Shown in pieces: positions 13,143 to 44,200 of a stretch of DNA of 64,000 nucleotides. The notes below the pieces were generated by a model. The model was not told the DNA's origin. It did not search any database and worked only from the letters and a program-made list of their open reading frames with translations. The stretch's first letter is position 1. Every line of letters starts with the position of its first letter. Made by a program: the position numbers and the translations under genes. Origin of the DNA: Parcubacteria group bacterium GW2011_GWA2_43_13 (GTDB taxonomy: Bacteria; Patescibacteriota; Patescibacteriia; UBA9629; GWA2-43-13); NCBI GenBank assembly GCA_000999025.1, contig LCFM01000004.1:1925-65924 (forward strand), read 5' to 3'.

Positions 13143-13215
13143 ATGGTGCGGTGTCTGTTTGAAAATATCCGAACGGAACTGGCTGGGCTCGGCGGGAGGA
13201 ATCCCCCCCACCCCC
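13143..13215. repeat. ~75-bp repeat with homopolymeric C tract (copy 1)
   Basis: cggtgtctgtttgaaaatatccgaacggaactggctgggctcggcgggaggaatccccccca-cccccccc; second copy at 13965-14040. Confidence 0.7.
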
Positions 13216-13545
13216 CCCTTCCGCCCGCCTCGCCTTGAACCGGAGCGGAAAGGACGATTTCAAGTTTTTCTTTGGCGACAAGCCCTAAACCAAATCCTTT
13301 TTCTTCTCCTCAAATTCTTTCTTATTTATCTCACCCTTCGCGTATCGCTCTTTCAAAATTTCAAGTGGCGATTTTTCGCCATTGTGAGTGCCGCGAAATT
13401 GGCTCGTAAGCCACATGATAAGGGCAACAATACCCGCGATGATGAGCCCCCACCAAAGGAACATAAACATCCAGCCGAAACCGTCAAAAGGGAAAAATCC
13501 AAAATTCATCATAGTGTTTGTTGAATTATTAAAGGTCAATATTAC
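13215..13545. repeat. ~300-bp direct repeat carrying the SHOCT gene (copy 1)
   Basis: near-identical to 16185-16465, including upstream cttccgcc..cgccttg and the whole small ORF. Confidence 0.8.
13285..13512 (-). CDS. SHOCT-domain small membrane protein (copy 1)
   Basis: 75 aa; TM helix and C-terminal ILKERYAKGEINKKEFEEKKKDL; near-identical to 16231-16458. Confidence 0.7.
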   Translation of the reverse strand: MMNFGFFPFDGFGWMFMFLWWGLIIAGIVALIMWLTSQFRGTHNGEKSPLEILKERYAKGEINKKEFEEKKKDLV

Positions 13546-13868: not shown

Positions 13869-13964
13869 AAAGTTATTTTATTAATTCAAGTATACAATAC
13901 ATCAATGTATCTCTAAAATCAACGAAAAGAAAGGATGGCCTTTCTTTTTTGATTCGGTGTCTGT

Positions 13965-14040
13965 TTGAAAATATCCGAACGGAACTGGCTGGGCTCGGCG
14001 GGAGGAATTCCCCCCCAACCCCCTTTTTTTGCCCACCTAC
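13965..14040. repeat. ~75-bp repeat with C/T homopolymer tract (copy 2)
   Basis: cggtgtctgtttgaaaatatccgaacggaactggctgggctcggcgggaggaattcccccccaaccccctttttttg. Confidence 0.7.
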
Positions 14041-16184: not shown

Positions 16185-16465
16185 GGAAATACCATCACCC
16201 CTTCCGCCTCGCCTTGCTTGCCTGCCCGACCTAAACTAAATCCTTTTTCTTTTCCTCAAATTCTTTTTTATTTATCTCACCTTTCGCGTATCGCTCTTTC
16301 AAAATTTCAAGTGGCGATTTTTCGCCATTATGAGTGCCGCGAAATTGGCTCGTAAGCCACATGATAAGCGCAACAATACCCGCGATGATGAGCCCCCACC
16401 AAAGGAACATAAACATCCAGCCGAAACCGCCAAAAGGAAAAAATCCGAAATTCATCATAGTGTTT
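16185..16465. repeat. ~300-bp direct repeat carrying the SHOCT gene (copy 2)
   Basis: near-identical to 13215-13545. Confidence 0.8.
16231..16458 (-). CDS. SHOCT-domain small membrane protein (copy 2)
   Basis: 75 aa, a few substitutions relative to copy 1. Confidence 0.7.
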   Translation of the reverse strand: MMNFGFFPFGGFGWMFMFLWWGLIIAGIVALIMWLTSQFRGTHNGEKSPLEILKERYAKGEINKKEFEEKKKDLV

Positions 16466-16471
16466 GTTGAA

Positions 16472-17170
16472 TTATTTTTTTAATCTCCTTATTTCTACTT
16501 CTATTTCTTTCACTACTTCTTTATTTTCAATGTCCCCATCTAAACTAAAAATAATGAATACCTTGCCTTGATATTTTTTCTCAAAATCAAAAAAATTTGT
16601 TTTCATTCTTTCGGATACAGAATAATTACCAAAATTTGCTTGTGCAGTTACTGGTTTAATTTGTATGCCAAAAGCTTTTTCGCCTACAAATCCTAAATAA
16701 TCTATATCGCCAGCATGATCAAGATCGTTATCACTTTTAACGAATTTTACTTCTGGAAAATATTCAGCCAGTCCATCATTGACGACAGATTTTTCACGAA
16801 TAAAACCATCATACGTACGATGTATTGTCAGGTTATAAATATAATCTTTGCAATCTTGTAGCGATAATTCATTGAAAGCGGCTTGCCATTCTGGTATAAC
16901 AACCTCGATAATTTTTTCATATAATCTTTCGCCCAATTCCATTAAAATTTCTGGTGTAATTTTTATCGCATTTTTGTTTTCGGTAAATGCTTTCTCAAAA
17001 TACCACTGTTCCCATTCATCTATGGTTTTAGGCTGACATTCTCGTATGAGCATCATGACAGCACCAACTTTATTCGGACGAGATAATTGATACGTTTGGC
17101 AAGCGTAATTTAATACTTTTTCTTTTTTACCAAAGTCCTTAGAATATTTTTTAGATTTTTTTACCGGCAT
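16472..17170 (-). CDS. putative type II restriction endonuclease, cognate of the adjacent methyltransferase
   Basis: 232 aa from MPVKKSKK; overlaps the 3' end of the MTase gene by 20 nt; acidic D/E-K-like segments (DLDHAGDIDYLGFVGEKAFGIQIK); family not recognised. Confidence 0.4.
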   Translation of the reverse strand: MPVKKSKKYSKDFGKKEKVLNYACQTYQLSRPNKVGAVMMLIRECQPKTIDEWEQWYFEKAFTENKNAIKITPEILMELGERLYEKIIEVVIPEWQAAFNELSLQDCKDYIYNLTIHRTYDGFIREKSVVNDGLAEYFPEVKFVKSDNDLDHAGDIDYLGFVGEKAFGIQIKPVTAQANFGNYSVSERMKTNFFDFEKKYQGKVFIIFSLDGDIENKEVVKEIEVEIRRLKK

Positions 17171-24610: not shown

Positions 24611-24860
24611 GGGCACAGCGCGATCCTCCTCGTTGTGGGGGTAATAAAAACACTTCTGAAGTATCAAAGAACATACCCCCAATGATCAAAATCCTACTTA
24701 AAACAAGTATCTTTGTCAAACATACAATGAACAAAAATAATCAACAATTTCATTTAACCACCTTCCTCCCCTTGGCACAAAAATGGCTATTGGTAAACAA
24801 AAACCACACCAACGAAATGATGCGGTTTGAAGGCGTATTACTTCATGCCCTTGCTTTTTG

Positions 24861-25547
24861 CTATTGCAACTGCTCTCGCTTTTTCAAATCACTCAAAATT
24901 TGCTCAAGTTGGTCTTTTTCCGGCAATCCGGAAATTTCTACATCACCAATGATGTAATACGGCGTTGCATCAACACCCAATGCCTGGCCTTCTGATATAT
25001 CCTGCCTGATATTGCCGACATATCTGCCGGACTCCATACACACTTGAAAACGATCAATGGGCATACCAAGCTGGCGGGCAAGCAATATCATGCCCTGCTG
25101 GTTCAGTGCCACATTTCGACGGAACAGTTCATCATGAAAATCCCAAAACCTTCCCATTTCCGCCGCGCATCGAGCCGCGTTATGCACAACTGTTGTGCCG
25201 GGATGCGACTGTTCAACAGGGAAATCTTTCCACACAAGCTGAATATCGTTCGGATACGAAGAAAGGAGTTCATTGATAATCGGCGCCGCTTGCGCGCAAG
25301 CTGGACACAAAAAATCGCTGTATTCAACAATTTTCATAACAGCAGTGTCAGGTCCTTTGCGTATTGTTGTTTTGTCAATGATTGGCTCAGAAATATTTAA
25401 ACGATTCGAAGAAGATGGTTGTTGCGTGTTTTGTCTTTTCAAAAACGAGGGTATGCCGAACACGGAAAAAGCGAATGCAGTAATAACCGATATCGCTATC
25501 AGAATACATAACGCTATGCCAAGTGTAGTTAATGATTCTTTTTTCAT
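24861..25547 (-). CDS. DsbA-like thiol:disulfide oxidoreductase, membrane-anchored
   Basis: N-terminal TM helix; thioredoxin-fold YSDFLCPACAQ (CxxC). Confidence 0.75.
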   Translation of the reverse strand: MKKESLTTLGIALCILIAISVITAFAFSVFGIPSFLKRQNTQQPSSSNRLNISEPIIDKTTIRKGPDTAVMKIVEYSDFLCPACAQAAPIINELLSSYPNDIQLVWKDFPVEQSHPGTTVVHNAARCAAEMGRFWDFHDELFRRNVALNQQGMILLARQLGMPIDRFQVCMESGRYVGNIRQDISEGQALGVDATPYYIIGDVEISGLPEKDQLEQILSDLKKREQLQ

Positions 25548-25574
25548 ACTCAACCCCCTCTTTATCTCCTGCAA

Positions 25575-25625: not shown

Positions 25626-26924
25626 TTATTCCAACCCCATCCGATACACGCCACCCAGCGTGCTATCACGGAATATCAAGTCCTTTCCATCAGAAGATAT
25701 GTGAAGATCGGTTGCCTTCAGCCCGGGTGGCGCTCCAACCGGTTTTGCAAGTAGTGTGGTCTTGCCGGTAAAAATATCAATTTCATAAAAATCTTCAGGT
25801 ATTTTTTTTGCCAACTCTGGGAATAACCCAGATCCTTGCGGTAATTCTTGCGGCACCGCGCAAATGACACTCTCACCATTTGATCTAAATACACATTTTT
25901 CAGCCCATGTCTGCACATACAACGGCACGTTGTTTTCTCCCATTGTCTCGGGACGAGCATCAGTAATCCACAATGTTGGATTATGATTTGTTGTTTCACT
26001 GCGCACGCTATACAGCAATTTATCTCCTGTCGGCGCCCACACTTCCTCAAACCCACGACCGGCAACGCGCAAAGCAGGTAAATTCTCTTGATTCTTTCCT
26101 AAAGGATAAATCTTTTGCGTATCACCTGTTTCGCCTTTAGTATAAAACGCAATCACCTGATTATTCGGCGACCAATCAACCCGCACTAATACGCCGTTGT
26201 CGCCTAAATGCTCAACATTTTGAATTGATTCGCCGTCAGTGCTTGATACGGCAAGCCAATTCTGCCAAAAATCAGTTGTCATCATTTTATACGCCACTTC
26301 TTGCGATGACGGGGAAAACGAAAATCCTTCTGCTTCTTTGGGAAGCGTTACCTGTTTATCATGAGCAAAATCATAAATAATATTGTAGCCGTCTGGAAAT
26401 TCAACCACTGCTTTATCGCCTGATTGCGACCACACTACCTGCTTTGCGCTTGGGAACGCGTCTTGAGAAAGATACTGTGTTTTTTGATCTAAACTAACTT
26501 CAACGAATTGTCCTTTTGACTGATCATAATACCTCACTGATCCATCTCCGCTGATTGCAATATTTTGAAACGACCCACTCGGCGTTGTGGGAGTAATGGC
26601 AGTATATCCGCCCTGTGCCACATCTGACACATTTCCAATCTGCGCCCCCTCATCCCCAAGTTGAGGAAGATCGGAAATACTGCCTCTTGTACCAGAAACT
26701 GCGAGCCCTCCTTGTGATTGCGACTGCTGAACAGTACCGCTTGTACCATCTTGAAGACCAGCTTGAGGTAACCCTTCGAGAGATGGCTTTGACGGAACAG
26801 GAGCAAGTACATTTGCACCTTGATCCCGACCAGAATTAAAAAAGACGAGCCAAATCCCAAGGATTATAACAAAAATCCCCATTACCCCCACACTGATAAT
26901 AATCATTGTCCTTTTATCCATCAT
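25626..26924 (-). CDS. TolB-like beta-propeller (PD40/WD40-like) protein with N-terminal TM anchor
   Basis: 432 aa; N-terminal TM helix and repeated beta-propeller blade-like segments (DWSPNNQVIAFY etc.). Confidence 0.5.
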   Translation of the reverse strand: MMDKRTMIIISVGVMGIFVIILGIWLVFFNSGRDQGANVLAPVPSKPSLEGLPQAGLQDGTSGTVQQSQSQGGLAVSGTRGSISDLPQLGDEGAQIGNVSDVAQGGYTAITPTTPSGSFQNIAISGDGSVRYYDQSKGQFVEVSLDQKTQYLSQDAFPSAKQVVWSQSGDKAVVEFPDGYNIIYDFAHDKQVTLPKEAEGFSFSPSSQEVAYKMMTTDFWQNWLAVSSTDGESIQNVEHLGDNGVLVRVDWSPNNQVIAFYTKGETGDTQKIYPLGKNQENLPALRVAGRGFEEVWAPTGDKLLYSVRSETTNHNPTLWITDARPETMGENNVPLYVQTWAEKCVFRSNGESVICAVPQELPQGSGLFPELAKKIPEDFYEIDIFTGKTTLLAKPVGAPPGLKATDLHISSDGKDLIFRDSTLGGVYRMGLE

Positions 26925-26987: not shown

Positions 26988-28748
26988 TCATCGCTTGAAT
27001 AATCGAGTAAAATCATACATTTTCTCACCATACCGATCTATCTTTAACTGAATATCTATGCAACAATTTTGCGTACACTGAGAAAGGCCTCCCTTATAAG
27101 ATTGACCACTAAGTAACCCTGAATTCCAATAATCGCATGAAACTTTCGCTTCTTCTTTACTATCACAACTTGACTTGCATTGAATATAGTTATTCTTTGT
27201 GAAAACAGGGCTTACGGAGCTCCCCTCCCCGCTAACCTTAGCACAACATACGCCGTAGGTGTATGTATTAGCGGTGAAATCTGCATTCCACGCTATTTCA
27301 ACACCTGGTACTACAGCGTCATCACTGCACACAATATTATTCAACTGAAAAGCTTCATCAAGTTTCCCAGCGAATGGAATCCACGAAAATATTGAATAAA
27401 CAAGATCACCCATCTCTCCTATGAAGCTTTTATCAACCGCTACTTTACCACCCGGGACATCTGGCTTTACCGTCAAATTATTACACATGATATTCTTATT
27501 AGATCCATCGTTTATAAGATGTAAATCAATTCTATCGAATGTCCCGATTTGATCAGATCCATCACACCTAATACGAGCAAGATCCTGCCCACATTGTACT
27601 ATTCTTCTTGTAGCACTACAAAACTCTTTCGTATTCATATAATTCTCAGGAAGCCAAACACATGCCGGGACATCCACTTCCTTGCCTGCTTCTTGTCCCC
27701 TAGAGTCAAGATAATATCCTGCTACTTCTGTCGCCGCAGCTTTACAACTTGGCTCTCCTTGCGCAACATTACATCGCGCTTTTGCGTATTCACCAGCCAC
27801 CCCCTTACTACATCCAAAGCCAGTCGCATTCTTTAACTGAACACATGTTTTATTTTTATCAATATTAGACGGATTACTTGTAATAGAACGAAAACGTTCG
27901 GGTGTTACCCCATTTTTTAGCTCTTCTGCTATTTTATCTACATAACATACTCTGCCATAACATCCATTATAATCACCTTTTTCATCTAACTTATACTCAC
28001 TAAATTGCTTCCGATCATCTGCCTCCACCTCAACATATACTTCTCCGCATACTGTTTGAGTTGCTTGCAATATCGGTTTTTGTTTTGCTATCGCCTCATC
28101 AAGATGCTTGCCATTAGATGTCTCAAGATACATACTTGCTCCTTGGCATTGTGCCGCTATATACTCTCTTGCTCGATCCTCTGGATCAGCAAACTTCTGT
28201 TCTACTGTTTCAATCACATCCGGCATATTTTCTAATTTCAAATTCACTAATTCAGGATTGATTAAATTTAAAATATTATACGAAAGCAGTGCTATCACAA
28301 GTCCTGCGACCGCGCCTTTTATTCGTGTTTTTGCGTCATCTATTGCTCCGGAATTTCCGCCTGCAAACAACCATCGGTAACCAGCAATCATAATCATAAA
28401 CACCGAGGCAATCGCGGCAATCCCTACCAAAAACCGATACACTCCGGCGATATACGAAATAACGCCACCTGTTTTATCGTCTGGATCAACAACTGCCGTT
28501 GCCTTTGTAACACATCTGCCTTTAATGGTCTTGCCTTCTACTAATTTGTTGCAATCTTCATCTTTCTCACATTTCTCCCCTATCTTCCCAAGCGCGCATT
28601 CTTTTTTTGGCGTTGACACCCCCGGAATATACACTTGCAAATCAATTGGCGCAGGATCATCCGCGGAAAAAACATTGGAAATAATACCTATCACACCCAA
28701 AAAGACAATAACTATACTCAAGAATATTCGCACTTGTCTAAAAAACAT
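26988..28748 (-). CDS. Cys-rich surface protein with VirB2/TrbC-like two-TM hairpin (paralog 1)
   Basis: 586 aa; signal peptide, ~100-aa Cys segment, TM-loop-TM FLVGIAAIASVFMIMIAGYRWLFAGGNSGAIDDAKTRIKGAVAGLVIALLSYNILNLINPELV, then ~400-aa Cys-rich domain with CYGRVCY. Confidence 0.5.
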   Translation of the reverse strand: MFFRQVRIFLSIVIVFLGVIGIISNVFSADDPAPIDLQVYIPGVSTPKKECALGKIGEKCEKDEDCNKLVEGKTIKGRCVTKATAVVDPDDKTGGVISYIAGVYRFLVGIAAIASVFMIMIAGYRWLFAGGNSGAIDDAKTRIKGAVAGLVIALLSYNILNLINPELVNLKLENMPDVIETVEQKFADPEDRAREYIAAQCQGASMYLETSNGKHLDEAIAKQKPILQATQTVCGEVYVEVEADDRKQFSEYKLDEKGDYNGCYGRVCYVDKIAEELKNGVTPERFRSITSNPSNIDKNKTCVQLKNATGFGCSKGVAGEYAKARCNVAQGEPSCKAAATEVAGYYLDSRGQEAGKEVDVPACVWLPENYMNTKEFCSATRRIVQCGQDLARIRCDGSDQIGTFDRIDLHLINDGSNKNIMCNNLTVKPDVPGGKVAVDKSFIGEMGDLVYSIFSWIPFAGKLDEAFQLNNIVCSDDAVVPGVEIAWNADFTANTYTYGVCCAKVSGEGSSVSPVFTKNNYIQCKSSCDSKEEAKVSCDYWNSGLLSGQSYKGGLSQCTQNCCIDIQLKIDRYGEKMYDFTRLFKR

Positions 28749-28779
28749 ATATCAATACAATTAACCCACAAACCACTAC

Positions 28780-30387
28780 CTATTTTTGCTCTATTTGTAA
28801 ACAACAAATATCAGGACTTTCACAGCGTTCTTTGGGTTTTCCTGACTTCCATATACTCTCATATCCACCTGCAACATCATTCCAAACAGAACAGTCGACT
28901 TTAACTTCGTTGGAATGACACTGCGGCGTCCCACCACCTCGACAATCAATCCCATTCTTAATCAATCTTGCTGATACATCAGTTTGTTCCCTTCTCTTAT
29001 CTAAAACAGCGCAACAAATTCCTACCCCATAATCTCCGCCAGCGATTTGTTCCTCCGAGCATCTCGCAATAGGGGTTTGGTTTTCAATCATACACTCATA
29101 CCCAACAGGACGTTTTGTATCAGTACTCTCGAACCCCTCTAATCCCAAAGAAATAGTATAAGGAGCAGGAATTGTATCCTTACCCGCACAATCTAATCTT
29201 ACCTCACCAACCCCACAATTTCTCACTTCTGCTATATCGCATGTATACTGGCCAGTCCCTTGTAATACCTTTCCTCCCGGAGAAAGCTCCATAACCTCTG
29301 CCGCTGTACAAATAAGAGAACCACCACTCGCACGAAACGTTAAATCATTCTTTGTAGCACATTTTTGTTCACACGTTTTTTGACTATCCGTGGTAGTACA
29401 CTTAACCTCTTTACATATATCTTTCGCCATTATATTCTGCCCTACATTTTGTCCAAACCCTAATGCTTTTCCACTACACTCAAATCCTATAGTATCTGTC
29501 TTAGGATTACAGGTATCTTTTGTAGCTTCTGATGTAACCCCCGCTTGTATGTACTGCCCCTCTTGCAATCCCTTATAACATACTCGACCATAACATTGTT
29601 TACTAGGAAACCGCTGTTGTAAATCTTGAGATAATAAATCAAACCCTACTATTGTATACATTGAACCACAAACCGTAGCATCACCAGTGGCGGCCCTATT
29701 ACTCGGGCTTAATACTTTTATATCAGGCGGGCACTGGAGATCTAAATTTCTCTCTACTTGATTTGCAGTAGCCCAATCCTGTTCTATACATTCAATCGGT
29801 GTTAAATTTTTCGCGACATTGGGAAGGGAAAGGTCTACAAGCTCGGGGTTGATGATTTTTAAAATCGTAAAAGAAAATAACGCAATCAACAGTCCTGCGA
29901 GAGCGGAGCGCATGGTCTCTTTTGCTTTATCAACTGCGCCGGAATTTCCACCTGCAAACATCCATCTGTAACCCGCTACTGCCAGCATCAATACTGACGC
30001 CATTGCCGCAAGAATAACAAAAAATTTATATAATTTACTAATATAATCAACCGCTCCACCAGCGGGGTTGTCCGCGTCAATGTTAATCTGCGCCTGTTGA
30101 ACGCATATCCCTTTAATTTTTACCCCGTTAACCTCTTTTTCACATGCAGTATCATTCTCTGTGCCTGCGTTTGCTTTATGACATTCCGCTCCCACTTTGC
30201 CAGTCGCGCACACATACGCCTCGTCAGTCACTCCAGGAATATAAATCTGCAATTTTGCCGGATCCGGACCATCTTTCTCTTTTTTACACTTTCCCCCTTG
30301 CGCTAAAACAGGAGCAACACTGTATAACAAAATAAAAAAAAGCAATAGTATAAAAGACAATCGCGTGTATTTTAAAACACTATTCAT
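28780..30387 (-). CDS. Cys-rich surface protein with VirB2/TrbC-like two-TM hairpin (paralog 2)
   Basis: 535 aa; same architecture and conserved hairpin FFVILAAMASVLMLAVAGYRWMFAGGNSGAVDKAK..LIALFSFTILKIINPELV and CYGRVCY. Confidence 0.5.
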   Translation of the reverse strand: MNSVLKYTRLSFILLLFFILLYSVAPVLAQGGKCKKEKDGPDPAKLQIYIPGVTDEAYVCATGKVGAECHKANAGTENDTACEKEVNGVKIKGICVQQAQINIDADNPAGGAVDYISKLYKFFVILAAMASVLMLAVAGYRWMFAGGNSGAVDKAKETMRSALAGLLIALFSFTILKIINPELVDLSLPNVAKNLTPIECIEQDWATANQVERNLDLQCPPDIKVLSPSNRAATGDATVCGSMYTIVGFDLLSQDLQQRFPSKQCYGRVCYKGLQEGQYIQAGVTSEATKDTCNPKTDTIGFECSGKALGFGQNVGQNIMAKDICKEVKCTTTDSQKTCEQKCATKNDLTFRASGGSLICTAAEVMELSPGGKVLQGTGQYTCDIAEVRNCGVGEVRLDCAGKDTIPAPYTISLGLEGFESTDTKRPVGYECMIENQTPIARCSEEQIAGGDYGVGICCAVLDKRREQTDVSARLIKNGIDCRGGGTPQCHSNEVKVDCSVWNDVAGGYESIWKSGKPKERCESPDICCLQIEQK

Positions 30388-30408: not shown

Positions 30409-31119
30409 TCATTCTCCCGTAGCGCCAGCGCCTCCTCCCCGCACCTCCTCAATTTGTTGTGGCTCCTCTGTAGGTTCTTCTGTTGGTTCTGTGTCTTTGC
30501 CGCCAAAAATCGCCGATACCACTCCAATAATCACAAACAAAATTAACAACCCCAATAAAATCCACGGCAAAACAGAGGCAATAGCAGACAGCACAGAGAT
30601 GATCACCTTTTTTTTTATCTGCTGTTTTATCATGTCCTTCCCTGCCTGTTGAGCCACACTCTTCACTTGTTGTTGCGCCACATCAGCCGCGCGCGAGCGC
30701 GCGCTTTCTCTCATATCCTCTAATTGATCTTTCATCGTTTCTGTTTCTACCTCCTGCGCTTGTTCTTGCGCCTGCTGTTCATCAGCTTGCTTTGATTCCT
30801 GCTCTTGCGCGCTCAACTCTTGTTGTTGTTGTAAATTTTGCTGTTGCGCTTTATCTTGCTCTTCTTGAAACCCTCTATCTTGTTCTTCGCGCACGTCTTG
30901 TGAAGATTCTTGATCTTCGTCATCATCATCATCTTCTTCTCTATACCCATACTCCTCCTCATCATCATCGTCCTCATCTTGCTCTGATTGTAAAATCCGA
31001 CTCTCATCTTGAGAGTCCTTTAATGTTTCAGATGCAATATTCTGCTCATGCTCGCCAAGCTCTAAATCAAGTTCAAGATCGCTTGGATCATCTTTTTGCA
31101 ATGCTTTTTCTTCTGCCAT
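30409..31119 (-). CDS. acidic low-complexity protein with C-terminal TM anchor
   Basis: D/E/Q-rich (EDDDDEEEYGYREEDDDDDEDQ) with C-terminal TM VISVLSAIASVLPWILLGLLILFVIIGVV; start taken at MAEEK. Confidence 0.45.
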   Translation of the reverse strand: MAEEKALQKDDPSDLELDLELGEHEQNIASETLKDSQDESRILQSEQDEDDDDEEEYGYREEDDDDDEDQESSQDVREEQDRGFQEEQDKAQQQNLQQQQELSAQEQESKQADEQQAQEQAQEVETETMKDQLEDMRESARSRAADVAQQQVKSVAQQAGKDMIKQQIKKKVIISVLSAIASVLPWILLGLLILFVIIGVVSAIFGGKDTEPTEEPTEEPQQIEEVRGGGAGATGE

Positions 31120-31134
31120 AGTTATATCCCAAAG

Positions 31135-31190
31135 GAATACCTCCCCCTTCCCCCTCCTTATAAAGGAGGGGGAACGCATACTATCCCTCC
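31135..31190. repeat. palindromic element family B
   Basis: cctcccccttccccctccttataaaggagggggaacg, intergenic. Confidence 0.6.
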
Positions 31191-31804
31191 ACGCCCTTTT
31201 TCCAAAATACGCTATTCACAAGCCATTGATCCCCCTCTTTTATCAACTCAACATCCGCATTTTGAGGAAACAACATTGTATTGCCTTCAAATCCTCGCGC
31301 CTCGGCTCGTTGAGTAACAACCGTGTATACACGCTTTGCATCAGGATTTTCCTGTTGCGAAAAATCAATAGAAACATTCAACGCCTGGGTTGTTATTCCA
31401 TAATACACAGAAGAATCGTTGTCTGCCATCATTCCCAATCCATACCGTCTCGCCCACTGATAAAACTGCTCTGTTGTAACCATTTTTAATGCTTCAAGAT
31501 TGCTAAACTCATTTTGATTTGAAAACGTGCCAAATCGTTCAATAAAAGTAGATACAAAACGCTCCATTTGTCGCTCTTTTCTTTCTTGTTCAGAGATTGG
31601 GGTCGGCTCATATTCAACCGCCTTTGAGATTGATATCGGGTCATCAAAATTTTCTTGAATATCCTGCGCATCAGCATCTGTTGTTAGTGATGAGGGCTGT
31701 GTTTTTGCTGTACGAATCGTAATCACAAAAATCACAACAATGCTTATGAGAATAAGCCCGGTAATAATAATGATGATTTTTTTCAACGCACTCATGTCGA
31801 GCAT
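31181..31804 (-). CDS. membrane-anchored protein, possible VirB8-like (NTF2-like) T4SS component
   Basis: 207 aa; N-terminal TM plus ~170-aa extracytoplasmic domain; size, topology and position next to virB4 only. Confidence 0.25.
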   Translation of the reverse strand: MLDMSALKKIIIIITGLILISIVVIFVITIRTAKTQPSSLTTDADAQDIQENFDDPISISKAVEYEPTPISEQERKERQMERFVSTFIERFGTFSNQNEFSNLEALKMVTTEQFYQWARRYGLGMMADNDSSVYYGITTQALNVSIDFSQQENPDAKRVYTVVTQRAEARGFEGNTMLFPQNADVELIKEGDQWLVNSVFWKKGVEG

Positions 31805-31898: not shown

Positions 31899-33848
31899 CT
31901 ACGCCGCCGGAGCTGATTGAGGGGTTACTGGCGCCGTAACTTGTTCTTCTTCTTTTTTCTGAGTCGAACCAAACCCTTCGAGCTGGGCATTTTCAAACTC
32001 TTTCTTTGATTCTTCAATCTCAAGCAACTGCCGCGGGTCAGAGGTGATAATTTGATCTTCAGTATATGACGCAATAATTTTGATAGCCGCGTGCTTGTTG
32101 CCTGCGAAAAAGATACCCTCACCAACTCCGCTTTCAAGTAATAAATACCGCTCACCTTGGGTTAACATAAATGTTTTACTTACAACATCAATAGATGCTG
32201 TTGATTGCCTCAAAAGAATCTGCATCGGCGAATTCGTTACAATCGCTTGTCCGTATGGCGAAAGCAAAAAATCATTCACATCTTGCGTAATAGTAGTAAC
32301 ACCTAAATAATATTTACGGCACCGTTTGACGAGAGCAAAAATAAACCGCGCAGAGTCCTCATGTTGCATCAACCACCATGCCTCATCAACCACAAGAATG
32401 CGTTTTTTGAGTTTTGACCGCACAATATTCCAAATGTAATTCACAATCATGTACACTGCCATGGGACGCAACTCATCTTCCAAATCCCGCACGCTGAAAA
32501 TCACAAGCTGATTATCCATGTCAATATTCGTACGGTTGTTAAATAAACCGGAAAATGTGCCTTCTGTGTATTTTTTCAATCGCTCAGCAAGATTATCTCC
32601 TCCCTCCATGCCGTTTAACACATCCAATAAATCCTGCATAACCGGCATTTCCACTTTGGCAAGATCAGCATCAGGAGTAATATCGCGTTTCGCATACACT
32701 TCAAGTAACGCGCGATCAAGTAAAGAATCCTCTGTCTGATTCATTTTCCCAAGCATAATTCTCAATAACCCCTTAACCGTAATAACTGCGGAACGAATGA
32801 CATCGGCAACGCTTGTGTCTTCCCCCACTGCGCGCGGAAGATCGAATGGATTGATTTTACTATCAGAACTCAATGAAATATTGATATACGTTCCTCCAAC
32901 AGCATCTGACAGATGCTTATACTCGCGTTCAGGATCAATAATAATCACATCAGTGCCTACCATTAAACTTCTCAATACTTCAAGCTTTACCGCGTAACTT
33001 TTTCCTGCGCCAGATGTTGCAAACACGACTGAATTTGCATTTTGCAATGAAAACCTGTCAAAAATGATCAAACCGTTATTATGCCGATTGATACCGTACA
33101 AAATTCCATGATCGCTGGTTAAATCAGATGAAATAAACGGGAACGACGACGCAATCGGAGAAGAGTTCATATTAAAACTCACACTTAATTCATCATTACC
33201 AAGTGGCAGTGTTGAATTAAACCCTTGCTCGTTTTGCCAGAGTGAACGTTTTGTTACGACTAACTTTGAGCCGAAAATACTTTCAATTTTAACGGTCTGC
33301 TGATCAAGTTCTTCTTTGGTTTTTGCATAAATAGTTACGTATAACGCGAACTGAAAAAACTTTTCAATGCCCTGCGTAATATCATCGCGCAATTTTTCCA
33401 AATCCTGCAGAGCTGATTCCCTCAATGGATCGCGGGGAGCTCCTTTTTCAGCGTCAGCAACCAACTGCGCTTCAATATTTCCGACCTTATTCCTCATTTG
33501 TTTCAGCACCACTTCGGTTGGTATTGGATAAAAAAACATTGAAATATCAATCGGCCCGTTAAAATTAATAATCGGAGCAAACCATCCAACACTGATATAG
33601 CGTGGATACCCGATCACAAAAAGAGTTCGGGTCCAGTTGCTTCCAAGCCGAAGAGTATCGGGAGCAACTTCCATGCCTGACGGAGCAATGATATCCCGAA
33701 TCGCGACAGTCCCTTCTTGATAAAACTTTTCCGCTTCCAGTAGTTCTTTCACTTGCTTTTGATCACCCTTTTCTTGAAGTTGCGAAGAGTGAGCAAGGTC
33801 ATCGCTCTCTTGTTGTTTTTGTTGTAATTGATTTGGTGTAAAAGCCAC
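31899..33848 (-). CDS. virB4: VirB4/TrsE/PrgJ-family T4SS ATPase
   Basis: 649 aa; Walker A ATSGAGKSYAVK and Walker B ILVVDEAWWLM; N-terminal domain IRDIIAPSGMEV..RTLFVIGYPRY typical of Gram-positive VirB4 homologues. Confidence 0.85.
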   Translation of the reverse strand: MAFTPNQLQQKQQESDDLAHSSQLQEKGDQKQVKELLEAEKFYQEGTVAIRDIIAPSGMEVAPDTLRLGSNWTRTLFVIGYPRYISVGWFAPIINFNGPIDISMFFYPIPTEVVLKQMRNKVGNIEAQLVADAEKGAPRDPLRESALQDLEKLRDDITQGIEKFFQFALYVTIYAKTKEELDQQTVKIESIFGSKLVVTKRSLWQNEQGFNSTLPLGNDELSVSFNMNSSPIASSFPFISSDLTSDHGILYGINRHNNGLIIFDRFSLQNANSVVFATSGAGKSYAVKLEVLRSLMVGTDVIIIDPEREYKHLSDAVGGTYINISLSSDSKINPFDLPRAVGEDTSVADVIRSAVITVKGLLRIMLGKMNQTEDSLLDRALLEVYAKRDITPDADLAKVEMPVMQDLLDVLNGMEGGDNLAERLKKYTEGTFSGLFNNRTNIDMDNQLVIFSVRDLEDELRPMAVYMIVNYIWNIVRSKLKKRILVVDEAWWLMQHEDSARFIFALVKRCRKYYLGVTTITQDVNDFLLSPYGQAIVTNSPMQILLRQSTASIDVVSKTFMLTQGERYLLLESGVGEGIFFAGNKHAAIKIIASYTEDQIITSDPRQLLEIEESKKEFENAQLEGFGSTQKKEEEQVTAPVTPQSAPAA

Positions 33849-33914: not shown

Positions 33915-34610
33915 TTAAAATGATTCAACTTGCACTTTTTCTATTTCATGCATTTTTTGCGAATCAACAAGTTCAGGATTATAGGTTGAGTAAAATAATT
34001 CTATCAAACCTTGCGTATCCAGCATAATCGGCGTCAATCCCATACCCGCAAGTCCGGACATAACATAATCAACTCTTTTCATAAGAGAATCTCGGTACGA
34101 AGTAAATGTTTTTTGAGAAAGACGAATAACTTTACTGGGGGTAAAAATCTCACTCATTCGGGAAAAAAATCCTTTTTGCTTGTCAGAACCGGGTGCGTAG
34201 GAAATGACCGTAAAAAATTTTTTGCCCATAATATCGCCTAATCCAATCAGCTCTTTGATAAAATTGATATACTCAACGGTTTGCGCGCGCAATAAATCAT
34301 TTGAATGTTTGTTAATATACTCCTCAAGCTCTGCGATATACGCGTCAATATTCAACGGTCGGGATTGAATCACGATTTGGAGCGAAAAATTAATAGAATT
34401 TAAAAATCCAACATAGCCGCCAACAATCGCTTCTTGCTCCTCCTCTGATTTTAACGCAAAATTAATAGATGAAACCATTAATACAGAGCGCAATGTACCA
34501 TCTTTTAACACAACAACGTCATCACGAATCTCGGCAATATCCAAATACTGCTGTGTTGACGCTTTAGGTTTATTGCCTTGAAGTTGCTTTGATTTCATAA
34601 CGGGTAACAC
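33915..34610 (-). CDS. VirB4 N-terminal-domain-like protein
   Basis: 231 aa; YLDIAEIRDDVVVLKDGTLRSVLMVSSINFALKSEEEQEAI..FLNSINFSLQIVIQSR resembles the N-terminal region of VirB4-family proteins but has no ATPase motifs. Confidence 0.35.
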   Translation of the reverse strand: MLPVMKSKQLQGNKPKASTQQYLDIAEIRDDVVVLKDGTLRSVLMVSSINFALKSEEEQEAIVGGYVGFLNSINFSLQIVIQSRPLNIDAYIAELEEYINKHSNDLLRAQTVEYINFIKELIGLGDIMGKKFFTVISYAPGSDKQKGFFSRMSEIFTPSKVIRLSQKTFTSYRDSLMKRVDYVMSGLAGMGLTPIMLDTQGLIELFYSTYNPELVDSQKMHEIEKVQVESF

Positions 34611-34631: not shown

Positions 34632-35141
34632 TTATGCCTTCCGGCCCTGCGTAATTTCAGCGTGCAAATCTGTTTTATATCTTCCGCCAGTATCAGCCAT
34701 TAAAGACAATTCAGAAAGACGCGAATGCGTTACTTGCGACTTTTTCACTACCTGGGGAGCAACCATGTGCGATGTCTTTTTATCCTGATGGCTCGCGACC
34801 GCGTGAACCACTGTCATGCCTTTATTCCAAATTCGTTTAGACGGCCGTTTGAGTGTTTGCAACATTCCCACAATAAAAACATGGAATGGCCTGCCGTTTA
34901 CTTTCACGAATCCGAACAACGCGACCGTAGCTAAAATACCGATGGCAAAAGCGATAAATATCGGCAATACGAAAATTTTATAACACACAAAAAGAAACAA
35001 CCCGCCGATAATCATGATAATAAATTGACGAATCGTAATCGGTCCGATAATTTTATCTTCTACATCAATAAATTGTGGAACTACATACTGCTGTGGCATA
35101 CTGCATGAAAATAACAAAATCCAAATATCAAATGACAACAA
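34632..35141 (-). CDS. PrgI/VirB3-like small T4SS membrane protein
   Basis: VPQFIDVEDKIIGPITIRQFIIMIIGGLFLF followed by two TM helices, the PrgI/VirB3-like pattern; the start may be the internal Met ending at 35099. Confidence 0.5.
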   Translation of the reverse strand: MLSFDIWILLFSCSMPQQYVVPQFIDVEDKIIGPITIRQFIIMIIGGLFLFVCYKIFVLPIFIAFAIGILATVALFGFVKVNGRPFHVFIVGMLQTLKRPSKRIWNKGMTVVHAVASHQDKKTSHMVAPQVVKKSQVTHSRLSELSLMADTGGRYKTDLHAEITQGRKA

Positions 35142-41211: not shown

Positions 41212-44200
41212 CTACTCCTGAATCTTGACTGGTAAAGAAAAGAACGTGTTATCGTTCTGATCGCAGTCCGATCCCCAATTCCCCGCCCCACTGGCTGGTT
41301 CCGAGATATTGTCTGCGCCATTGCACCATCCCCAGTTATCAGTCACACGAATGCGAATCTTAATATCCGTACCAACAACACCTGAACCATATACATGCGT
41401 GTACCGATGTGGGCTTGCCATATCGCGGCGCTGATCAATGGCAAGATTTGTCTGGCGGGTAAAACTGCCATCTCCCCAGTCAATTTCTATGGCCTTAATC
41501 GGCAAATGATCAATAGGAACATTTGTTGTAAATGCCAACTGAACTGATCTTTGCTCGCCGATGCTAACCACAGGAGTAGGAGTAATAGCAGATTTTTGGC
41601 CAATCTTCACCCCATTCGCCTGCACTTCTAAAATTTGAGGAGCATAATACTTACATGTCCCTTTCCCCTTATCACAAGAAGAACCCAACGCGCAAGAAGA
41701 ATCCAACGCGCAAGGAGAACCCAACACGTCGGAGCAGAACTGCCGATTAGAGGAACAAACCAACATACCACGCTTATCCACTACTCCCCCTTCAGAGCGA
41801 TACCCTTGAATACCATCATCCCACTTAAATCGCTCGAATATCTTACTAAACACACTGAAAATTCGATTTAATCCAGTAGATGCAAGCGTTGTAGATGCAA
41901 GCGTTGTGGAAGGCGCCACAATAGTTGTTGGCGTACATACTCCTGGTGGTTCATCTGCTGGTTTCGGCGGTGTTGATGTCTCGCAATTGCTTGAAATTTT
42001 ACATGATTTCCCAAGCTTATCTTTTGCGCCCTTCGTACACACATTCCCTGCGGGACATGATCCGCCTGGGCAATCTTTTGGCGTAAAACACACACTTCCG
42101 TCTCGCGCGCCACCAACACAGGTATTAATGGTTGCATCATACGCAAATGCCATATTGCCCCTGTGCGTTTCTGTGCATAATTTTGCCTGCTCGTTGTTTT
42201 GCGTATCTCCACTGCTAAACAACAATAATGGACTTTGAATAATTTGATCAGGCACAAAATCGTTATTTGTATCAAGCGTCCTTAGAATATCTGACGGCCG
42301 ATCAATAGCAGGCGCGGCGCTGAACGGCAAACACTGTGTGTTCACGCCAAATTGAACAGGTTTTTCAAGCGTATACGTTCCCTGCATCCGCGACGCCCAT
42401 GCCGCATTTGTTCCATCATCATCAACTGTTTTAACCAATTCCGCGCAATATAATGGACGTGAAATGCGCTGTACCTTCTTTAATGTGGAAACACCTTCAA
42501 GGACAAGGAAACGATCCATCACCCTATCCCGTACACCAGCATGGGTAGTTAATTTAGTAAAACCATCAAATACCGCATCAGAACTGCCGGTACAGTATGG
42601 TTCTGCACAATATGATTCCCGCGGGTCATATCCAGAATGATCATCATCATCACAGAAATTAGTATCGTCAGACCATTCATAAATAGCCGCCTTATGGTAT
42701 ACCTCTAATAATTTATCTGTATAACACGAAGAATCTGAAGAACTTGCGCAATCACTTGATGAAGAAAATTGCAGGGTTTTAATCCGGTTATCATCTGATG
42801 ACTCTTTTCCTGTCACTTCTAAACATCCGCCTTTGACCTCGCCGTCGTCAGCACCTGTCGACTCCACTCCAATCCGTCCGCTGGCGTTAGCGGTCAAATG
42901 TGGATTAAACACATTCACTGAATCACCTAATAGCCAATCATCTTCTGATAAACTGTAAAACGCTGGTTTAGGATCGCTTGCAATAGCAAACTTCCAGCAT
43001 CCGGCATCTTTATCAAGCGGGTTCCCTCTAAACGCAACGCACACAAAACGAGGCACATCATATCTTGGCGGAAGTGGCTTTTCTTTTGCCACGGCGCAAT
43101 GGTATACAGGTCCCGGACCTTGGTAGCCAATATTTTCCGGCTTGGTGAATATATTGGTTTCGTCTTTAATCACATCAACCGGATACCATTGAATACACAC
43201 CGCAGGGTTTGCCGGATCACGCTCCATGCACAACCCTTTCCATCCGCGCACATACTGGCCTCTATCATCTATAGCATCGCACTGTAAAGCAGATGATGCA
43301 GGATACAGCCGGCATGACGGAGCGGAATCAAGCAACGGTCGCTCGGTCTCTTTTGCCACGCGCAGTACCGGCCGAATTTGAATATCATCAAACACAACTG
43401 ATCCTGTAATATCCTGCATAAGGTCAATACGCAAGGAACGCGTTGTGCTGTGCGTTGTGAAATCTTTTGCAAAAAACTGCCACTGATTCCCAAGAGTAAA
43501 ATTCGATGTATCCACAGCAAGTACAGAACCAACTGCTCCGCTATTCCCGCTCTCCGGCGCTCTATCATTATTAAATTGAACAACTTTCACCAACGTCTGC
43601 GCTCTATCAGTTCCAACAGTGCTCTGGTCAAGGTTTCGCGTATTCACCCACCCTGAAACCACATACGTAGTATTCCCCCGAATGTTTGACACGCGCGTGG
43701 ACATGCCGGTTTGCTCTCCTTCAGAAGACGCGACAGTTTGAAGAAACGCGGCAATATCCACATCAGATCCGCGAATCAAATCACACTTCCCGTCGCACAC
43801 ACTTTGCTCATACCAGATGATATCTGAATACTCCAAACGCGATGTATTGGAAAATACCACATCATCAATTATTAATGCAGTAGCGCCTGAATCAGCGCGT
43901 TGGAACCTCACCGCGAGTTTGCGCGATTCTACTGAATCTACTTTTAAAAATGTGATGGTAAATGTTTTCCATGTATCGCCAGTTGATGATACATCTAATC
44001 CTGAAACAAAAGCTCCCAATCCAGTGCTTCCGGTATCATAACTATTTTTAAGTTCATCTTCATTAGGATTTTTATGGAGTTCAACCTTTAATGTGCCTGT
44101 GCCTTTTATTTTTCCTTTTATAGAATATGACTCACCTGCTTTCATCTCATCTAAAACCATTGCCACTTCCGCTTTCTCTACCCCGCACCGCGCGCCCAAA

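What the first reader, a model, noticed from the sequence alone, without database searches (positions are those of the whole stretch)
26988..30387. Paralogous Cys-rich proteins with a VirB2/TrbC-like two-helix hairpin embedded between large extracellular domains
Both proteins (586 and 535 aa) have a signal peptide and a ~100-aa Cys-containing N-terminal segment. A strongly conserved TM-loop-TM hairpin follows (..AGYRW[LM]FAGGNSGA[IV]D.AK..A.AGL.IAL.S..IL..INPELV). After it comes a ~350-400-aa Cys-rich domain (>30 Cys each) sharing a CYGRVCY motif. This is the topology of a T4SS pilin fused to large ectodomains, and the proteins sit next to VirB4 and a DsbA-like oxidoreductase. They could be pilus or adhesin subunits of the T4SS-like machine.
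Basis: seen in the sequence. Interest (0 to 1): 0.65.

Follow-up and report, generated by a model that had tools for sequence, protein, structure and literature searches.

The report
Giant cysteine-rich T4SS pilin-like proteins
Two neighbouring genes of an ultrasmall (Patescibacteria) bacterium encode type IV secretion pilin-like membrane hairpins that each carry a large, very fast-evolving, disulfide-rich outer domain, most likely swappable surface-contact modules of a machine already known in this phylum.

Summary
ORFs 26988-28748 (586 aa) and 28780-30387 (535 aa), both on the minus strand, are paralogues (35% identity, E 1e-54). Each has a signal peptide, a 4-Cys N-terminal mini-domain, a conserved two-helix hairpin and a 350-415 aa Cys-rich C-terminal domain with CYGRVCY. 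Cys totals are 26 and 30, not >30 each.

The hairpin matches Pfam PF18895 (T4SS_pilin). The genes sit in a Candidatus Jacksonbacteria (class ABY1) T4SS cluster: PrgI, TrsD-like, VirB4, p207, p256, pilin B, pilin A, p432, DsbA-like.

VirB2-like pilins near virB4 in Patescibacteria are published (2023, 2025), so the kind is known. Four things looked new:
- Typical family members are 98-146 aa; every pilin gene in the 12 related loci with a complete pilin ORF is long (339-585 aa, 10-30 Cys). In 9 of the 10 GTDB loci it sits beside p432 and/or DsbA homologues.
- The C-domain is an orphan: 3 clusters among 1.84 billion representatives.
- It is about 20% identical between genomes whose VirB4 is 94% identical. 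At the B position it is replaced by an unrelated domain just after the hairpin.
- Other members carry a 3D peptidoglycan-lytic domain instead.

Best reading: modular VirB2-type pilins displaying interchangeable ectodomains. Assembly into a pilus is untested.

The parts
28780..30387 (-). Pilin-like protein B (535 aa, 30 Cys), first of the tandem pair
   Evidence: ORF. PF18895 at 28.7 bits, above the 26.6 cut-off, aa 113-178. 100% identical to P0001 from Candidatus Jacksonbacteria.
30301..30387 (-). B: signal peptide, aa 1-29 (VLA|QGG)
   Evidence: Hydrophobic window 3-32. The AXA site is read from the sequence.
30055..30300 (-). B: N-terminal extracytoplasmic mini-domain, aa 30-111. It holds the family's LQIYIPG motif and 4 conserved Cys (60, 69, 82, 95), plus non-conserved C34.
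   Evidence: Invariant Cys columns in alignment A1. AlphaFold2 gives a small beta-rich fold here, with block pLDDT about 69-89.
29830..30054 (-). B: pilin hairpin, aa 112-186. Order is amphipathic lead-in, TM1, loop AGGNSGAVDKAKETMRS, TM2, then INPELVDL.
   Evidence: 92-97% identical to orthologues P0002-4.
28783..29829 (-). B: C-terminal Cys-rich ectodomain, aa 187-535 (25 Cys; CYGRVCY at 265-271)
   Evidence: No Pfam family even at E 10. The profile finds only 3 clusters in 1.84 billion representatives. It is homologous to the C-domain of protein A, z = 12.8.
26988..28748 (-). Pilin-like protein A (586 aa, 26 Cys), second of the pair
   Evidence: ORF. PF18895 E 6e-5, 23.5 bits, aa 100-161. 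Local hairpin HMM E 8e-48.
28665..28748 (-). A: signal peptide, aa 1-28 (VFS|ADD)
   Evidence: The cleavage site is conserved as V[YF]A|ADDPA in P0006-8.
28464..28664 (-). A: N-terminal 4-Cys mini-domain, aa 29-95 (Cys 51, 60, 66, 79)
   Evidence: 82-84% identical to orthologues.
28239..28463 (-). A: pilin hairpin, aa 96-170
   Evidence: 85-88% identical to orthologues.
26991..28238 (-). A: C-terminal Cys-rich ectodomain, aa 171-586 (22 Cys; CYGRVCY at 263-269)
   Evidence: Only 17-26% identical to orthologues P0006-8, whereas neighbouring genes are 71-94% identical. No family match.
24861..25574 (-). Membrane-anchored DsbA/MdbA-like thiol-disulfide oxidoreductase (CPAC motif), last gene of the run
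   Evidence: PF13462 E 1.6e-19 and PF01323 E 7.4e-17. A DsbA homologue lies near the long pilin in 9 of 10 GTDB loci and in the close relatives L002 and (partial, at the contig end) L001.
24801..24828 (-). Terminator-like stem-loop (11 pairs plus a T run) just after the DsbA-like gene
   Evidence: Consensus scan only.
25626..26924 (-). p432: N-terminal TM, low-complexity linker and beta-propeller-like repeats. PD40/TolB-like motifs were read by eye.
   Evidence: Homologues lie next to the long pilin in L001, L002 and 8 of 10 GTDB loci. Pfam gives only faint hits.
30409..31179 (-). p256: acidic low-complexity protein with a C-terminal TM segment, between p207 and pilin B
   Evidence: Conserved in L001 and L002 at 52-53%. 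No credible family.
31181..31804 (-). p207: single-pass membrane protein always found directly after VirB4
   Evidence: tblastn hits after VirB4 in L001, L002, L004, L006, L009 and L011-13. No family match.
31899..33848 (-). VirB4-type ATPase
   Evidence: PF19044 E 5.5e-29 and PF12846 E 2.1e-11.
33915..34610 (-). TrsD-like protein (stand-alone VirB4 N-terminal domain)
   Evidence: NCBIfam NF041427 TrsD E 3.4e-9 and NF045975 E 4e-10. PF26593 TraC-like on the L002 orthologue.
34632..35141 (-). PrgI/VirB3-like protein
   Evidence: PF12666 E 3.1e-10, above cut-off.

Best explanation
The two genes encode modular members of the Patescibacteria T4SS pilin family (PF18895, VirB2-like).

Proposed pathway, with the basis for each step:
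- Sec export and signal-peptidase I cleavage leave the 4-Cys N-domain outside the cell. This is read from the sequence.
- The two long hydrophobic helices insert as a hairpin, with the short K/R-bearing loop (AGGNSGA-D-AK) in the cytoplasm. This is shown by hydropathy, charge distribution and the AlphaFold2 model.
- The 350-415 aa C-terminal domain therefore also lies outside the cell. This follows from the topology.
- Its 22-25 cysteines are oxidised by the co-transcribed membrane-anchored DsbA/MdbA-like enzyme. This is inferred from conserved linkage.
- The conserved hairpin is the part that docks with, or is handled by, the VirB4/PrgI/TrsD machine, as VirB2 pilins are. This is inferred from family membership and gene context.
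- The ectodomain is the variable business end: a surface-exposed, non-enzymatic binding module for contact with the host or partner cell. It diversifies very fast and can be exchanged as a cassette at the end of the hairpin-coding DNA. Divergence and exchange are shown; the binding role is inferred.

Stoichiometric polymerisation of 40-kDa ectodomains on a VirB2-type filament looks sterically hard. I therefore favour a location at the tip or base of a short pilus, or as a collar around the channel.
For: Family: PF18895 matches both hairpins, P0001's precomputed label and 8 of 10 further long homologues above cut-off. A hairpin profile retrieves ordinary 98-146 aa PF18895 pilins that share the IPG...hairpin...INP[DE]L layout.

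Topology. The loop carries 4 K/R, and both flanks are acidic (and the sequence).

Context: the order PrgI, TrsD-like, VirB4, p207, pilin(s), p432, DsbA is conserved in close relatives and, wholly or in part, in the 10 GTDB Patescibacteria loci. Gaps between genes are 0-106 nt, and a terminator-like site follows DsbA.

Long form only: every pilin-like ORF detected in those loci that is not cut by a contig end is 339-585 aa with 10-30 Cys.

Fast evolution and exchange, window versus L002:
- VirB4 94%, TrsD-like 92%, DsbA 84% and p432 79% identical.
- Pilin A C-domain about 20% identical.
- Pilin B C-domain not homologous at all (z = -0.3).
- Nucleotide identity falls from 80-93% to about 50% within roughly 60 nt after the hairpin.

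Orphan domain: 3 clusters in 1.84 billion representatives.

No enzyme signature: apart from Cys, only Gly and hydrophobic positions plus Q218, T238, R397, K477 and E494 are invariant, and there is no His.

Published background: pilin arrays in the T4SS cluster are essential in Southlakia epibionticum (PMC10633639), and VirB2-like pilins occur near virB4 in 1135 Patescibacteria assemblies (PMC12102498).
Against: No experiment or structure shows that PF18895 proteins polymerise, in any organism.

The link to canonical VirB2 is weak. PF04956 scores 15.8-16.7 bits here against a cut-off of 27.9. hhalign against six annotated MPF-T VirB2/TrbC proteins gives E 0.01 and probability 4%. Foldseek of the hairpin model returns only generic helical hairpins.

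The ectodomain could not be modelled (pLDDT 36), so a binding role rests on the absence of catalytic motifs in only 5 sequences.

Fast divergence could also reflect relaxed constraint. Other family members carry an enzymatic (3D) domain, so an enzymatic role cannot be excluded by analogy. Short pilins may exist elsewhere in this genome; only 64 kb were visible.
Confidence: 0.55

Rival explanations
1. Giant pro-pilins. The C-terminal domain is cut off at or just after the universally conserved INP[DE]L motif. This would yield an ordinary small pilin plus a released, disulfide-rich secreted protein, acting either as a passenger or as a propeptide.
For: Short family members end 5-25 residues after INP[DE]L, exactly where the long ones continue. 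C-terminal trimming of T4SS propilins is established for RP4 TrbC and Ti VirB2 (textbook knowledge, from memory). The sharp conservation boundary lies at that motif.
Against: No TraF-like or other peptidase gene was recognised in the cluster. A 400-aa disulfide-rich domain with a dedicated oxidoreductase is an expensive propeptide. In protein B the two non-conserved cysteines C34 and C200 sit on the outer face, one on each side of the hairpin. They could link the N- and C-domains, although this is speculative.
Confidence: 0.15
2. The hairpin is only a membrane anchor. These would be ordinary envelope or surface proteins (structural or adhesive) that happen to be encoded beside the T4SS and do not interact with it.
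For: The ectodomains are heterogeneous: orphan Cys-rich domains, a 3D domain and others. This is what a generic anchor would allow.
Against: The hairpin is the most conserved part (85-97% identity, against 45-84% for p432 and DsbA at comparable distances), far more than a passive anchor needs. It belongs to a family defined by T4SS linkage. The linkage to VirB4, p207, p432 and DsbA recurs in the 10 GTDB loci, which come from differently named Patescibacteria MAGs.
Confidence: 0.15
3. Pilin-tagged effectors. VirB4, acting as a pilin dislocase, extracts the hairpin from the membrane, and the whole protein is exported and inserted into the host cell envelope.
For: Family members fuse the same hairpin to a peptidoglycan-lytic 3D domain (PF06725, E 4e-7, above cut-off). 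Most Patescibacteria T4SS clusters lack a relaxase or coupling protein, which suggests protein rather than DNA transport (PMC12102498, PMC10633639).
Against: There is no precedent for a VirB2-type hairpin acting as a translocation signal. The ectodomain is already outside the cell after Sec export, so translocation through the channel is unnecessary.
Confidence: 0.1
4. The C-domains are themselves cell-wall or polysaccharide-degrading enzymes, a VirB1 substitute, as in the 3D-domain relatives.
For: 3D-domain fusions occupy the same architecture. Most Patescibacteria with VirB2 homologues lack VirB1 (PMC12102498).
Against: No hydrolase family matches even at E 10. No conserved His, Asp or Glu constellation appears among 5 homologues. 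About 20% identity between close relatives is atypical for an enzyme with a fixed substrate.
Confidence: 0.05

Closest known systems
VirB2-like pilins and pilin arrays of Patescibacteria T4SS (Pfam PF18895). Examples are SEML1 pilin genes of Southlakia epibionticum and the arrays of 2-11 genes reported by Quinonero-Coronel et al. 2025 (PMC10633639, PMC12102498, PMC12857230).
   Same: Same Pfam family. Same layout of signal peptide, IPG motif, two-helix hairpin and INP[DE]L. Same location beside virB4, prgI and trsD. Tandem, divergent paralogues.
   Different: [quoted passage not shown] These are 535-586 aa, with an inserted 4-Cys N-domain and a 350-415 aa disulfide-rich C-domain. They are also linked to DsbA and p432. 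The papers read here do not mention fused ectodomains.
Canonical TrbC/VirB2 pilins of diderm conjugation systems (Pfam PF04956; Ti-plasmid VirB2, RP4 TrbC)
   Same: Cleaved signal peptide, two long hydrophobic helices, a short basic loop, and a gene next to virB3 and virB4. The weak PF04956 hits fall on exactly the hairpin.
   Different: Scores are below the cut-off, and hhalign is not significant. Canonical pilins have no ectodomains and are trimmed or cyclised. The host here is a monoderm with an MPF-FATA-like machine.
Mbov_0395 / MMCAP2_0565 'pilin-like conjugal transfer protein' of Mycoplasma ICEs (NCBIfam NF045849)
   Same: 17 of 22 hairpin sequences of this family hit the model (best E 2.2e-8), over nearly its whole length. 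The TrsD-like neighbour also hits the Mycoplasma ICE VirB4 model. Both belong to wall-less or monoderm MPF-FATA-type systems.
   Different: All scores are below the 40-bit cut-off, so these are relatives rather than members. The Mycoplasma profile is only 80 positions long, with no room for an ectodomain.
Modular type IV (T4P) pilins of monoderms, e.g. Streptococcus sanguinis PilB (vWA module) and PilC (lectin module). This is from memory and was not checked here.
   Same: Same design principle: a conserved pilin module that assembles, fused to a bulky functional domain displayed on the filament.
   Different: An unrelated pilin fold and machine. T4P pilins have a class III signal peptide and a single N-terminal helix. 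Here there is an SPase I signal and a two-helix hairpin in a T4SS context.
MdbA/DsbA-dependent surface proteins of Actinobacteria, and the CPR-enriched MdbA-like oxidoreductase family (bioRxiv 10.1101/335083)
   Same: A membrane-anchored CxxC oxidoreductase is encoded with, and presumed to fold, disulfide-containing pilus or surface proteins.
   Different: That work linked the oxidoreductase to type IV pili (T4P), not to T4SS pilin-like proteins.

Membership tests
Pfam PF18895 T4SS_pilin (Patescibacteria VirB2-like pilins) | Profile match at or above the gathering score (26.6 bits) | tested here: met
   The 535-aa protein scores 28.7 bits. The 586-aa protein scores 23.5 bits (E 6e-5), below the cut-off on its own, but its hairpin is 59% identical to that of protein B. 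Eight of 10 further long homologues score 31-44 bits.
Pfam PF18895 T4SS_pilin | Signal peptide followed by two hydrophobic helices joined by a short loop, then the INP[DE]L motif | tested here: met
   Hydropathy, AlphaFold2 helices with pLDDT 86-92, and alignment with small family members.
Pfam PF18895 T4SS_pilin | Gene lies in a T4SS cluster near virB4 and prgI | tested here: met
Pfam PF18895 T4SS_pilin | Small single-domain protein (about 100-150 aa) | tested here: not met
   535 and 586 aa, against 98-146 aa for the hits to the hairpin profile. This is the basis for calling it a variant.
TrbC/VirB2 (Pfam PF04956), canonical conjugative pilin | Significant sequence or profile similarity | tested here: inconclusive
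   15.8-16.7 bits here and up to 26.2 bits in relative L007, against a cut-off of 27.9. hhalign versus six annotated MPF-T VirB2/TrbC proteins gives E 0.01 and probability 4%, although the alignment is topologically congruent.
TrbC/VirB2 (Pfam PF04956) | Polymerises with phospholipid into an extracellular pilus | not testable with these tools
   Needs cryo-EM, cryo-ET or biochemistry.
TrbC/VirB2 (Pfam PF04956) | Fold match to solved T4SS pilins | tested here: inconclusive
NCBIfam NF045849 Mbov_0395 pilin-like conjugal transfer protein (Mycoplasma ICE) | Score at or above the 40-bit cut-off | tested here: not met
   16.8-16.9 bits for the window proteins. 17 of 22 family hairpins hit, best E 2.2e-8. 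They are related but not members.
Type IV pilus (T4P) pilins | Class III signal peptide (G|F/M...E5) and a single N-terminal hydrophobic helix | tested here: not met
   Read from the sequence: an AXA-type SPase I site, no G-F-T-L-I-E motif, and two internal TM helices.
Gram-positive T4SS or sortase-anchored adhesins (PrgB-like) | C-terminal LPXTG sorting signal and adhesin domains | tested here: not met
   The C-termini are ...YDFTRLFKR and ...CCLQIEQK, with no LPXTG. No adhesin Pfam domain was found.
VirB1-type or 3D-domain cell-wall hydrolases | Match to a lytic transglycosylase, 3D or peptidase family in the ectodomain | tested here: not met
   No family even at E 10 for either C-domain. 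Relatives P0012-14 and L010 do carry PF06725.

The most novel reading that the evidence does not exclude
In ABY1-class Patescibacteria, the VirB2-type hairpin may be a universal docking or polymerisation module of the T4SS. Interchangeable disulfide-rich ectodomains would be grafted onto it: orphan binding domains as here, 3D-type peptidoglycan lyases elsewhere. The exchange would occur by recombination at the conserved hairpin-coding DNA. This would be the first 'modular pilin' system for a type IV secretion pilus. It would mean an armed or adhesive filament, folded by a dedicated DsbA and assisted by a TolB-like propeller, whose swappable heads set host range for these epibionts.
Probability: 0.3. 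Interest if true: 0.75.

Novelty: new variant of a known kind. Interest (0 to 1): 0.55.

Why it matters
The Patescibacteria T4SS is essential for epibiotic growth in the one species tested (PMC10633639). What it does, and what touches the host, are both unknown.

A pilin-family protein that carries a large, hypervariable, disulfide-stabilised outer domain is an obvious candidate for the host-contact surface. The same hairpin fused to a 3D cell-wall-lytic domain in relatives suggests that the family delivers functions to the cell-cell interface.

This gives concrete, testable targets: ectodomain swaps, antibodies and binding assays. It also provides a sequence marker for strain-level host specificity in metagenomes, namely the conserved hairpin followed by a variable 3' cassette.

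The recurrent hits to the Mycoplasma ICE pilin-like model also bear on an open point in PMC12102498. That point is whether the pilin was native to the monoderm MPF-FATA lineage or co-opted from diderm systems.

Tried and rejected
- AlphaFold2 of the full 535-aa protein with the only 5 homologues available gave pLDDT 36. Apart from the hairpin helices it was unusable, so no fold search of the ectodomain was possible.
- PDB sequence searches with the hairpin profile and with a relative's C-terminal module found nothing meaningful.
- hhalign against six annotated MPF-T VirB2/TrbC proteins fetched from plasmids gave E 0.01 and probability 4%, so canonical VirB2 homology is not proven.
- Pfam at E 10 and NCBIfam on both C-domains gave no family.
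- L006, L007 and L009 share a C-terminal module (...SCHYGG...AVDIGDE...H-HIS). I suspected a LAS/M15-type peptidase, but Pfam and PDB searches do not support this, so the idea is dropped as unverified.
- Internal repeats in the C-domains: none (z at most 1.8).
- A second or short pilin gene in the window: none found with a local hairpin HMM or with the broader A5 profile. Two small repeated ORFs that gave faint hits are SHOCT-like proteins, not pilins.
- P0002 joins the N-half of protein B (100% identical) to the C-half of P0004. It could be a real recombinant or a metagenome assembly chimera, so it is not used as evidence.
- The paralogue-versus-paralogue nucleotide profile failed because of an alignment artefact and is disregarded.


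Full report
**What is there**

The window is a chromosome segment of Candidatus Jacksonbacteria (Patescibacteria/CPR). The 535-aa protein is 100% identical to a 'hypothetical protein' of Candidatus Jacksonbacteria RIFCSPLOWO2_02_FULL. The supplement of PMC12102498 places Jacksonbacteria in class ABY1.

On the minus strand, ORFs 28780-30387 (B, 535 aa) and 26988-28748 (A, 586 aa) are separated by 31 nt. They are paralogues: 35% identity over 398 aa, E 1e-54. Each has four parts:
- A signal peptide with an AXA-type cleavage site.
- An N-terminal segment of about 65-80 aa with four conserved cysteines, following an LQ[IV]YIPGV motif.
- Two hydrophobic helices joined by the loop AGGNSGA[IV]D-AK, ending in INPELV.
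- A C-terminal domain of 350-415 aa with 25 (B) or 22 (A) cysteines and a shared CYGRVCY motif.

**The hairpin is a T4SS_pilin (PF18895) module**

- Pfam places PF18895 on the hairpin of both proteins. B scores 28.7 bits, above the 26.6 cut-off. A scores 23.5 bits, E 6e-5. TrbC/VirB2 PF04956 gives a weaker hit at the same position.
- A profile of the hairpin alone retrieves ordinary PF18895 proteins of 98-146 aa. These have the same layout and stop a few residues after INP[DE]L.
- AlphaFold2 on a 22-sequence alignment of the N-domain plus hairpin gives mean pLDDT 79.8. The two helices span residues 108-143 and 149-179 of B at pLDDT 86-92, and the model predicts a small beta-rich N-domain.
- The loop holds four K/R, and both outer flanks are acidic. 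The topology is therefore N-out, loop-in, C-out, which fits cysteine-rich domains on both ends and a DsbA-like gene in the operon.
- The link to canonical diderm VirB2 is not proven. PF04956 stays below its cut-off. hhalign against six annotated plasmid VirB2/TrbC proteins gives E 0.01 and probability 4%. Foldseek returns only generic hairpins.
- An unexpected relative turned up. 17 of 22 hairpins hit NCBIfam NF045849, the Mbov_0395 'pilin-like conjugal transfer protein' of Mycoplasma ICEs (best E 2.2e-8, all below cut-off). The neighbouring TrsD-like protein hits the Mycoplasma ICE VirB4 model.

**Genomic context**

The gene run on the minus strand is as follows:
- a polytopic 1192-aa protein
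- p206
- p509
- PrgI/VirB3 (PF12666)
- a TrsD-like protein
- VirB4 (PF19044)
- p207
- p256
- pilin B
- pilin A
- p432
- a DsbA/MdbA-like protein (CPAC motif)

Intergenic gaps are 0-106 nt, and a terminator-like hairpin follows the DsbA-like gene.

The same order is found in two close relatives, L001 and L002. A genome scan with hairpin peptide patterns returned 10 further loci, among them two Komeilibacteria and several MAGs labelled only 'Patescibacteria group bacterium'. Of these, 8 hold a p432 homologue and 9 a DsbA homologue beside the pilin gene. VirB4 lies within the fetched flank in 7, and RadA follows in 4. L010 is the exception: no p432, DsbA or VirB4 homologue lies within its fetched flank.

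Every pilin-like ORF detected in these loci that is not cut by a contig end is long: 339-585 aa, with 10-30 Cys and 150-410 aa after the hairpin. No short pilin lies within the fetched flanks or in the 64-kb window.

**The ectodomain is an orphan, evolves extremely fast, and is exchangeable**

A profile of the C-domain was searched against 1.84 billion cluster representatives. It found only three clusters: the protein itself, the A-type orthologue, and a truncated copy. Pfam (E up to 10) and NCBIfam find nothing, and there are no internal repeats.

Identity between the window and L002:

| Protein | Identity to L002 |
|---|---|
| VirB4 | 94% |
| TrsD-like | 92% |
| PrgI | 88% |
| RadA | 87% |
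| DsbA-like | 84% |
| p432 | 79% |
| Pilin A, N-domain | 82-84% |
| Pilin A, hairpin | 85-88% |
| Pilin A, C-domain | 17-26% |

These figures come; the three pilin A rows are ranges against the A-type orthologues P0006-8, one of which is L002's.

At the B position, the relatives P0002-4 keep the hairpin at 92-97% identity. They then continue with a shorter, unrelated domain (z = -0.3 against either window C-domain).

At the DNA level, identity falls from 80-93% over the hairpin to about 50% within roughly 60 nt after it. The conserved hairpin-coding DNA thus abuts a hypervariable 3' cassette.

Among five homologues, the invariant ectodomain positions are the cysteines, some Gly and hydrophobic residues, and Q218, T238, R397, K477 and E494. 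There is no His. That argues for a disulfide-stapled binding scaffold rather than an enzyme, but with only five sequences the argument is weak.

**The family is modular**

The same hairpin subfamily (YKF-VGIAG...WLF[AS]GG...INP-L) is fused to different C-terminal domains:
- A 3D domain, PF06725, which is peptidoglycan-lytic, in P0012-14 and L010 (E 4e-7, above cut-off).
- A distinct Cys-rich domain in P0009-11 and L008.
- A shared C-terminal module of about 140 aa in L006, L007 and L009. I could not assign this module.
- P0003 duplicates the 4-Cys N-domain.

**How it most likely works**

Shown: family membership of the hairpin, the topology signals, operon-like linkage to VirB4, PrgI, TrsD, p432 and DsbA, and the orphan, hypervariable, exchangeable ectodomain.

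Inferred:
- The DsbA-like enzyme oxidises the ectodomains.
- The hairpin is what the T4SS recognises, as VirB4 handles VirB2 pilins in classical systems (textbook knowledge).
- The ectodomain is a surface-exposed contact module under diversifying pressure.

In F-type pili the area per subunit on the filament surface is of the order of 25 x 25 angstrom (from memory of published structures). A 40-kDa domain on every subunit would therefore be crowded. I favour a tip, base or collar location, or a short decorated filament. This is speculation.

The rivals are a giant pro-pilin cleaved after INP[DE]L, a mere membrane anchor, a pilin-tagged effector, and a cryptic hydrolase. They are listed separately with their tests.

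**Comparison with what is known, and novelty**

Predicted pilins in an essential Saccharibacteria T4SS cluster were reported in 2023 (PMC10633639). A 2025 survey found VirB2-like pilins in 1948 Patescibacteria assemblies, near virB4 in 1135, with arrays of 2-11 divergent copies (PMC12102498). A 2025 review highlights them (PMC12857230). So 'a pilin next to VirB4 in a CPR genome' is known.

The passages I read in these papers treat the pilins as small proteins. They do not mention fused ectodomains, linkage to DsbA or p432, or cassette exchange. A full-text search for PF18895 found only that survey and an unrelated structure-clustering preprint. An earlier CPR study linked the CPR-enriched MdbA-like oxidoreductase to type IV pili, not to T4SS pilins (bioRxiv 10.1101/335083).

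I therefore rate this a new variant of a known kind. The closest concept is the 'modular pilin' of Gram-positive type IV pili (from memory), which belongs to an unrelated machine.

**Verdict**

The functional role is plausible but untested. Interest is moderate (0.55). It is not a new kind of system. It is a concrete and previously undiscussed architecture at what is probably the host interface of an essential, poorly understood machine.

Noticed in passing
window 13284-13530 and 16230-16476; also 13144-13220 and 13950-14026: A 247-nt direct repeat (96% identical) encodes two copies of a small TM plus SHOCT-like protein. There is also a 77-nt repeat (91%). Both lie in a lower-GC island at about 11-18.5 kb that also holds a 438-aa ORF I took for a DNA methyltransferase and ORFs that look like toxin-antitoxin genes (read by eye). 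This looks like a mobile or defence island.
   Followed up: partly
L010:1612-2748, and proteins P0012-P0014: The same pilin hairpin is fused to a C-terminal 3D domain (PF06725, peptidoglycan-lytic). In L010 it is preceded by a free-standing 172-aa ORF (956-1474) that looks 3D-like by eye. This may be the missing VirB1 function of Patescibacteria T4SS.
   Followed up: partly
L006:5578-7335, L007:1285-2394, L009:5608-7350 (C-terminal ~140 aa): Three long pilin-like proteins share a conserved C-terminal module (GRISSIS..HIG..C..SCHYGG..AVDIGDE..H-HIS). To me it resembles a metallopeptidase motif, but Pfam and PDB sequence searches gave nothing.
   Followed up: partly
Alignment A5 (22 hairpins of the family); window 33915-34610: 17 of 22 PF18895-type hairpins hit NCBIfam NF045849, the Mycoplasma ICE 'Mbov_0395 pilin-like conjugal transfer protein' (best E 2.2e-8). 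The TrsD-like neighbour hits the Mycoplasma ICE VirB4 model. This suggests the Patescibacteria pilin may be native to the monoderm MPF-FATA lineage rather than borrowed from diderm systems, a point left open in PMC12102498.
   Followed up: partly
Protein P0002 versus window 28780-30387 and P0004: P0002 is 100% identical to pilin B up to about residue 175, inside TM2. From there on it appears identical, by eye, to the unrelated C-domain of P0004. It is either a natural recombinant with its crossover in the conserved hairpin DNA or a metagenome assembly chimera.
   Followed up: partly
window 25626-26924: p432 has an N-terminal TM segment, a low-complexity linker and PD40/TolB-like propeller repeat motifs (by eye). 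Its homologues lie next to the long pilin in L001, L002 and 8 of the 10 GTDB loci. Pfam gives only faint hits, and its role is unknown.
   Followed up: partly
window 41212-50820 and 50917-54585: A 3202-aa ORF with no Pfam match and a 1222-aa ORF with IPT/TIG domains lie directly upstream of the T4SS genes on the same strand. They are probably giant surface proteins.
   Followed up: no
window 28780-30387 (residues C34 and C200 of the 535-aa protein): Pilin B has two extra, non-conserved cysteines, one just after the signal peptide and one just after TM2. Both are on the outer face, so they could form a disulfide tying the N- and C-ectodomains together. This is speculative.
   Followed up: no
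window 31181-31804: p207 is a single-pass membrane protein with an outer domain of about 170 aa. It is found directly after VirB4 in 8 related loci. Position and size fit a VirB8/PrgL-like component, but no profile supports that.
   Followed up: no
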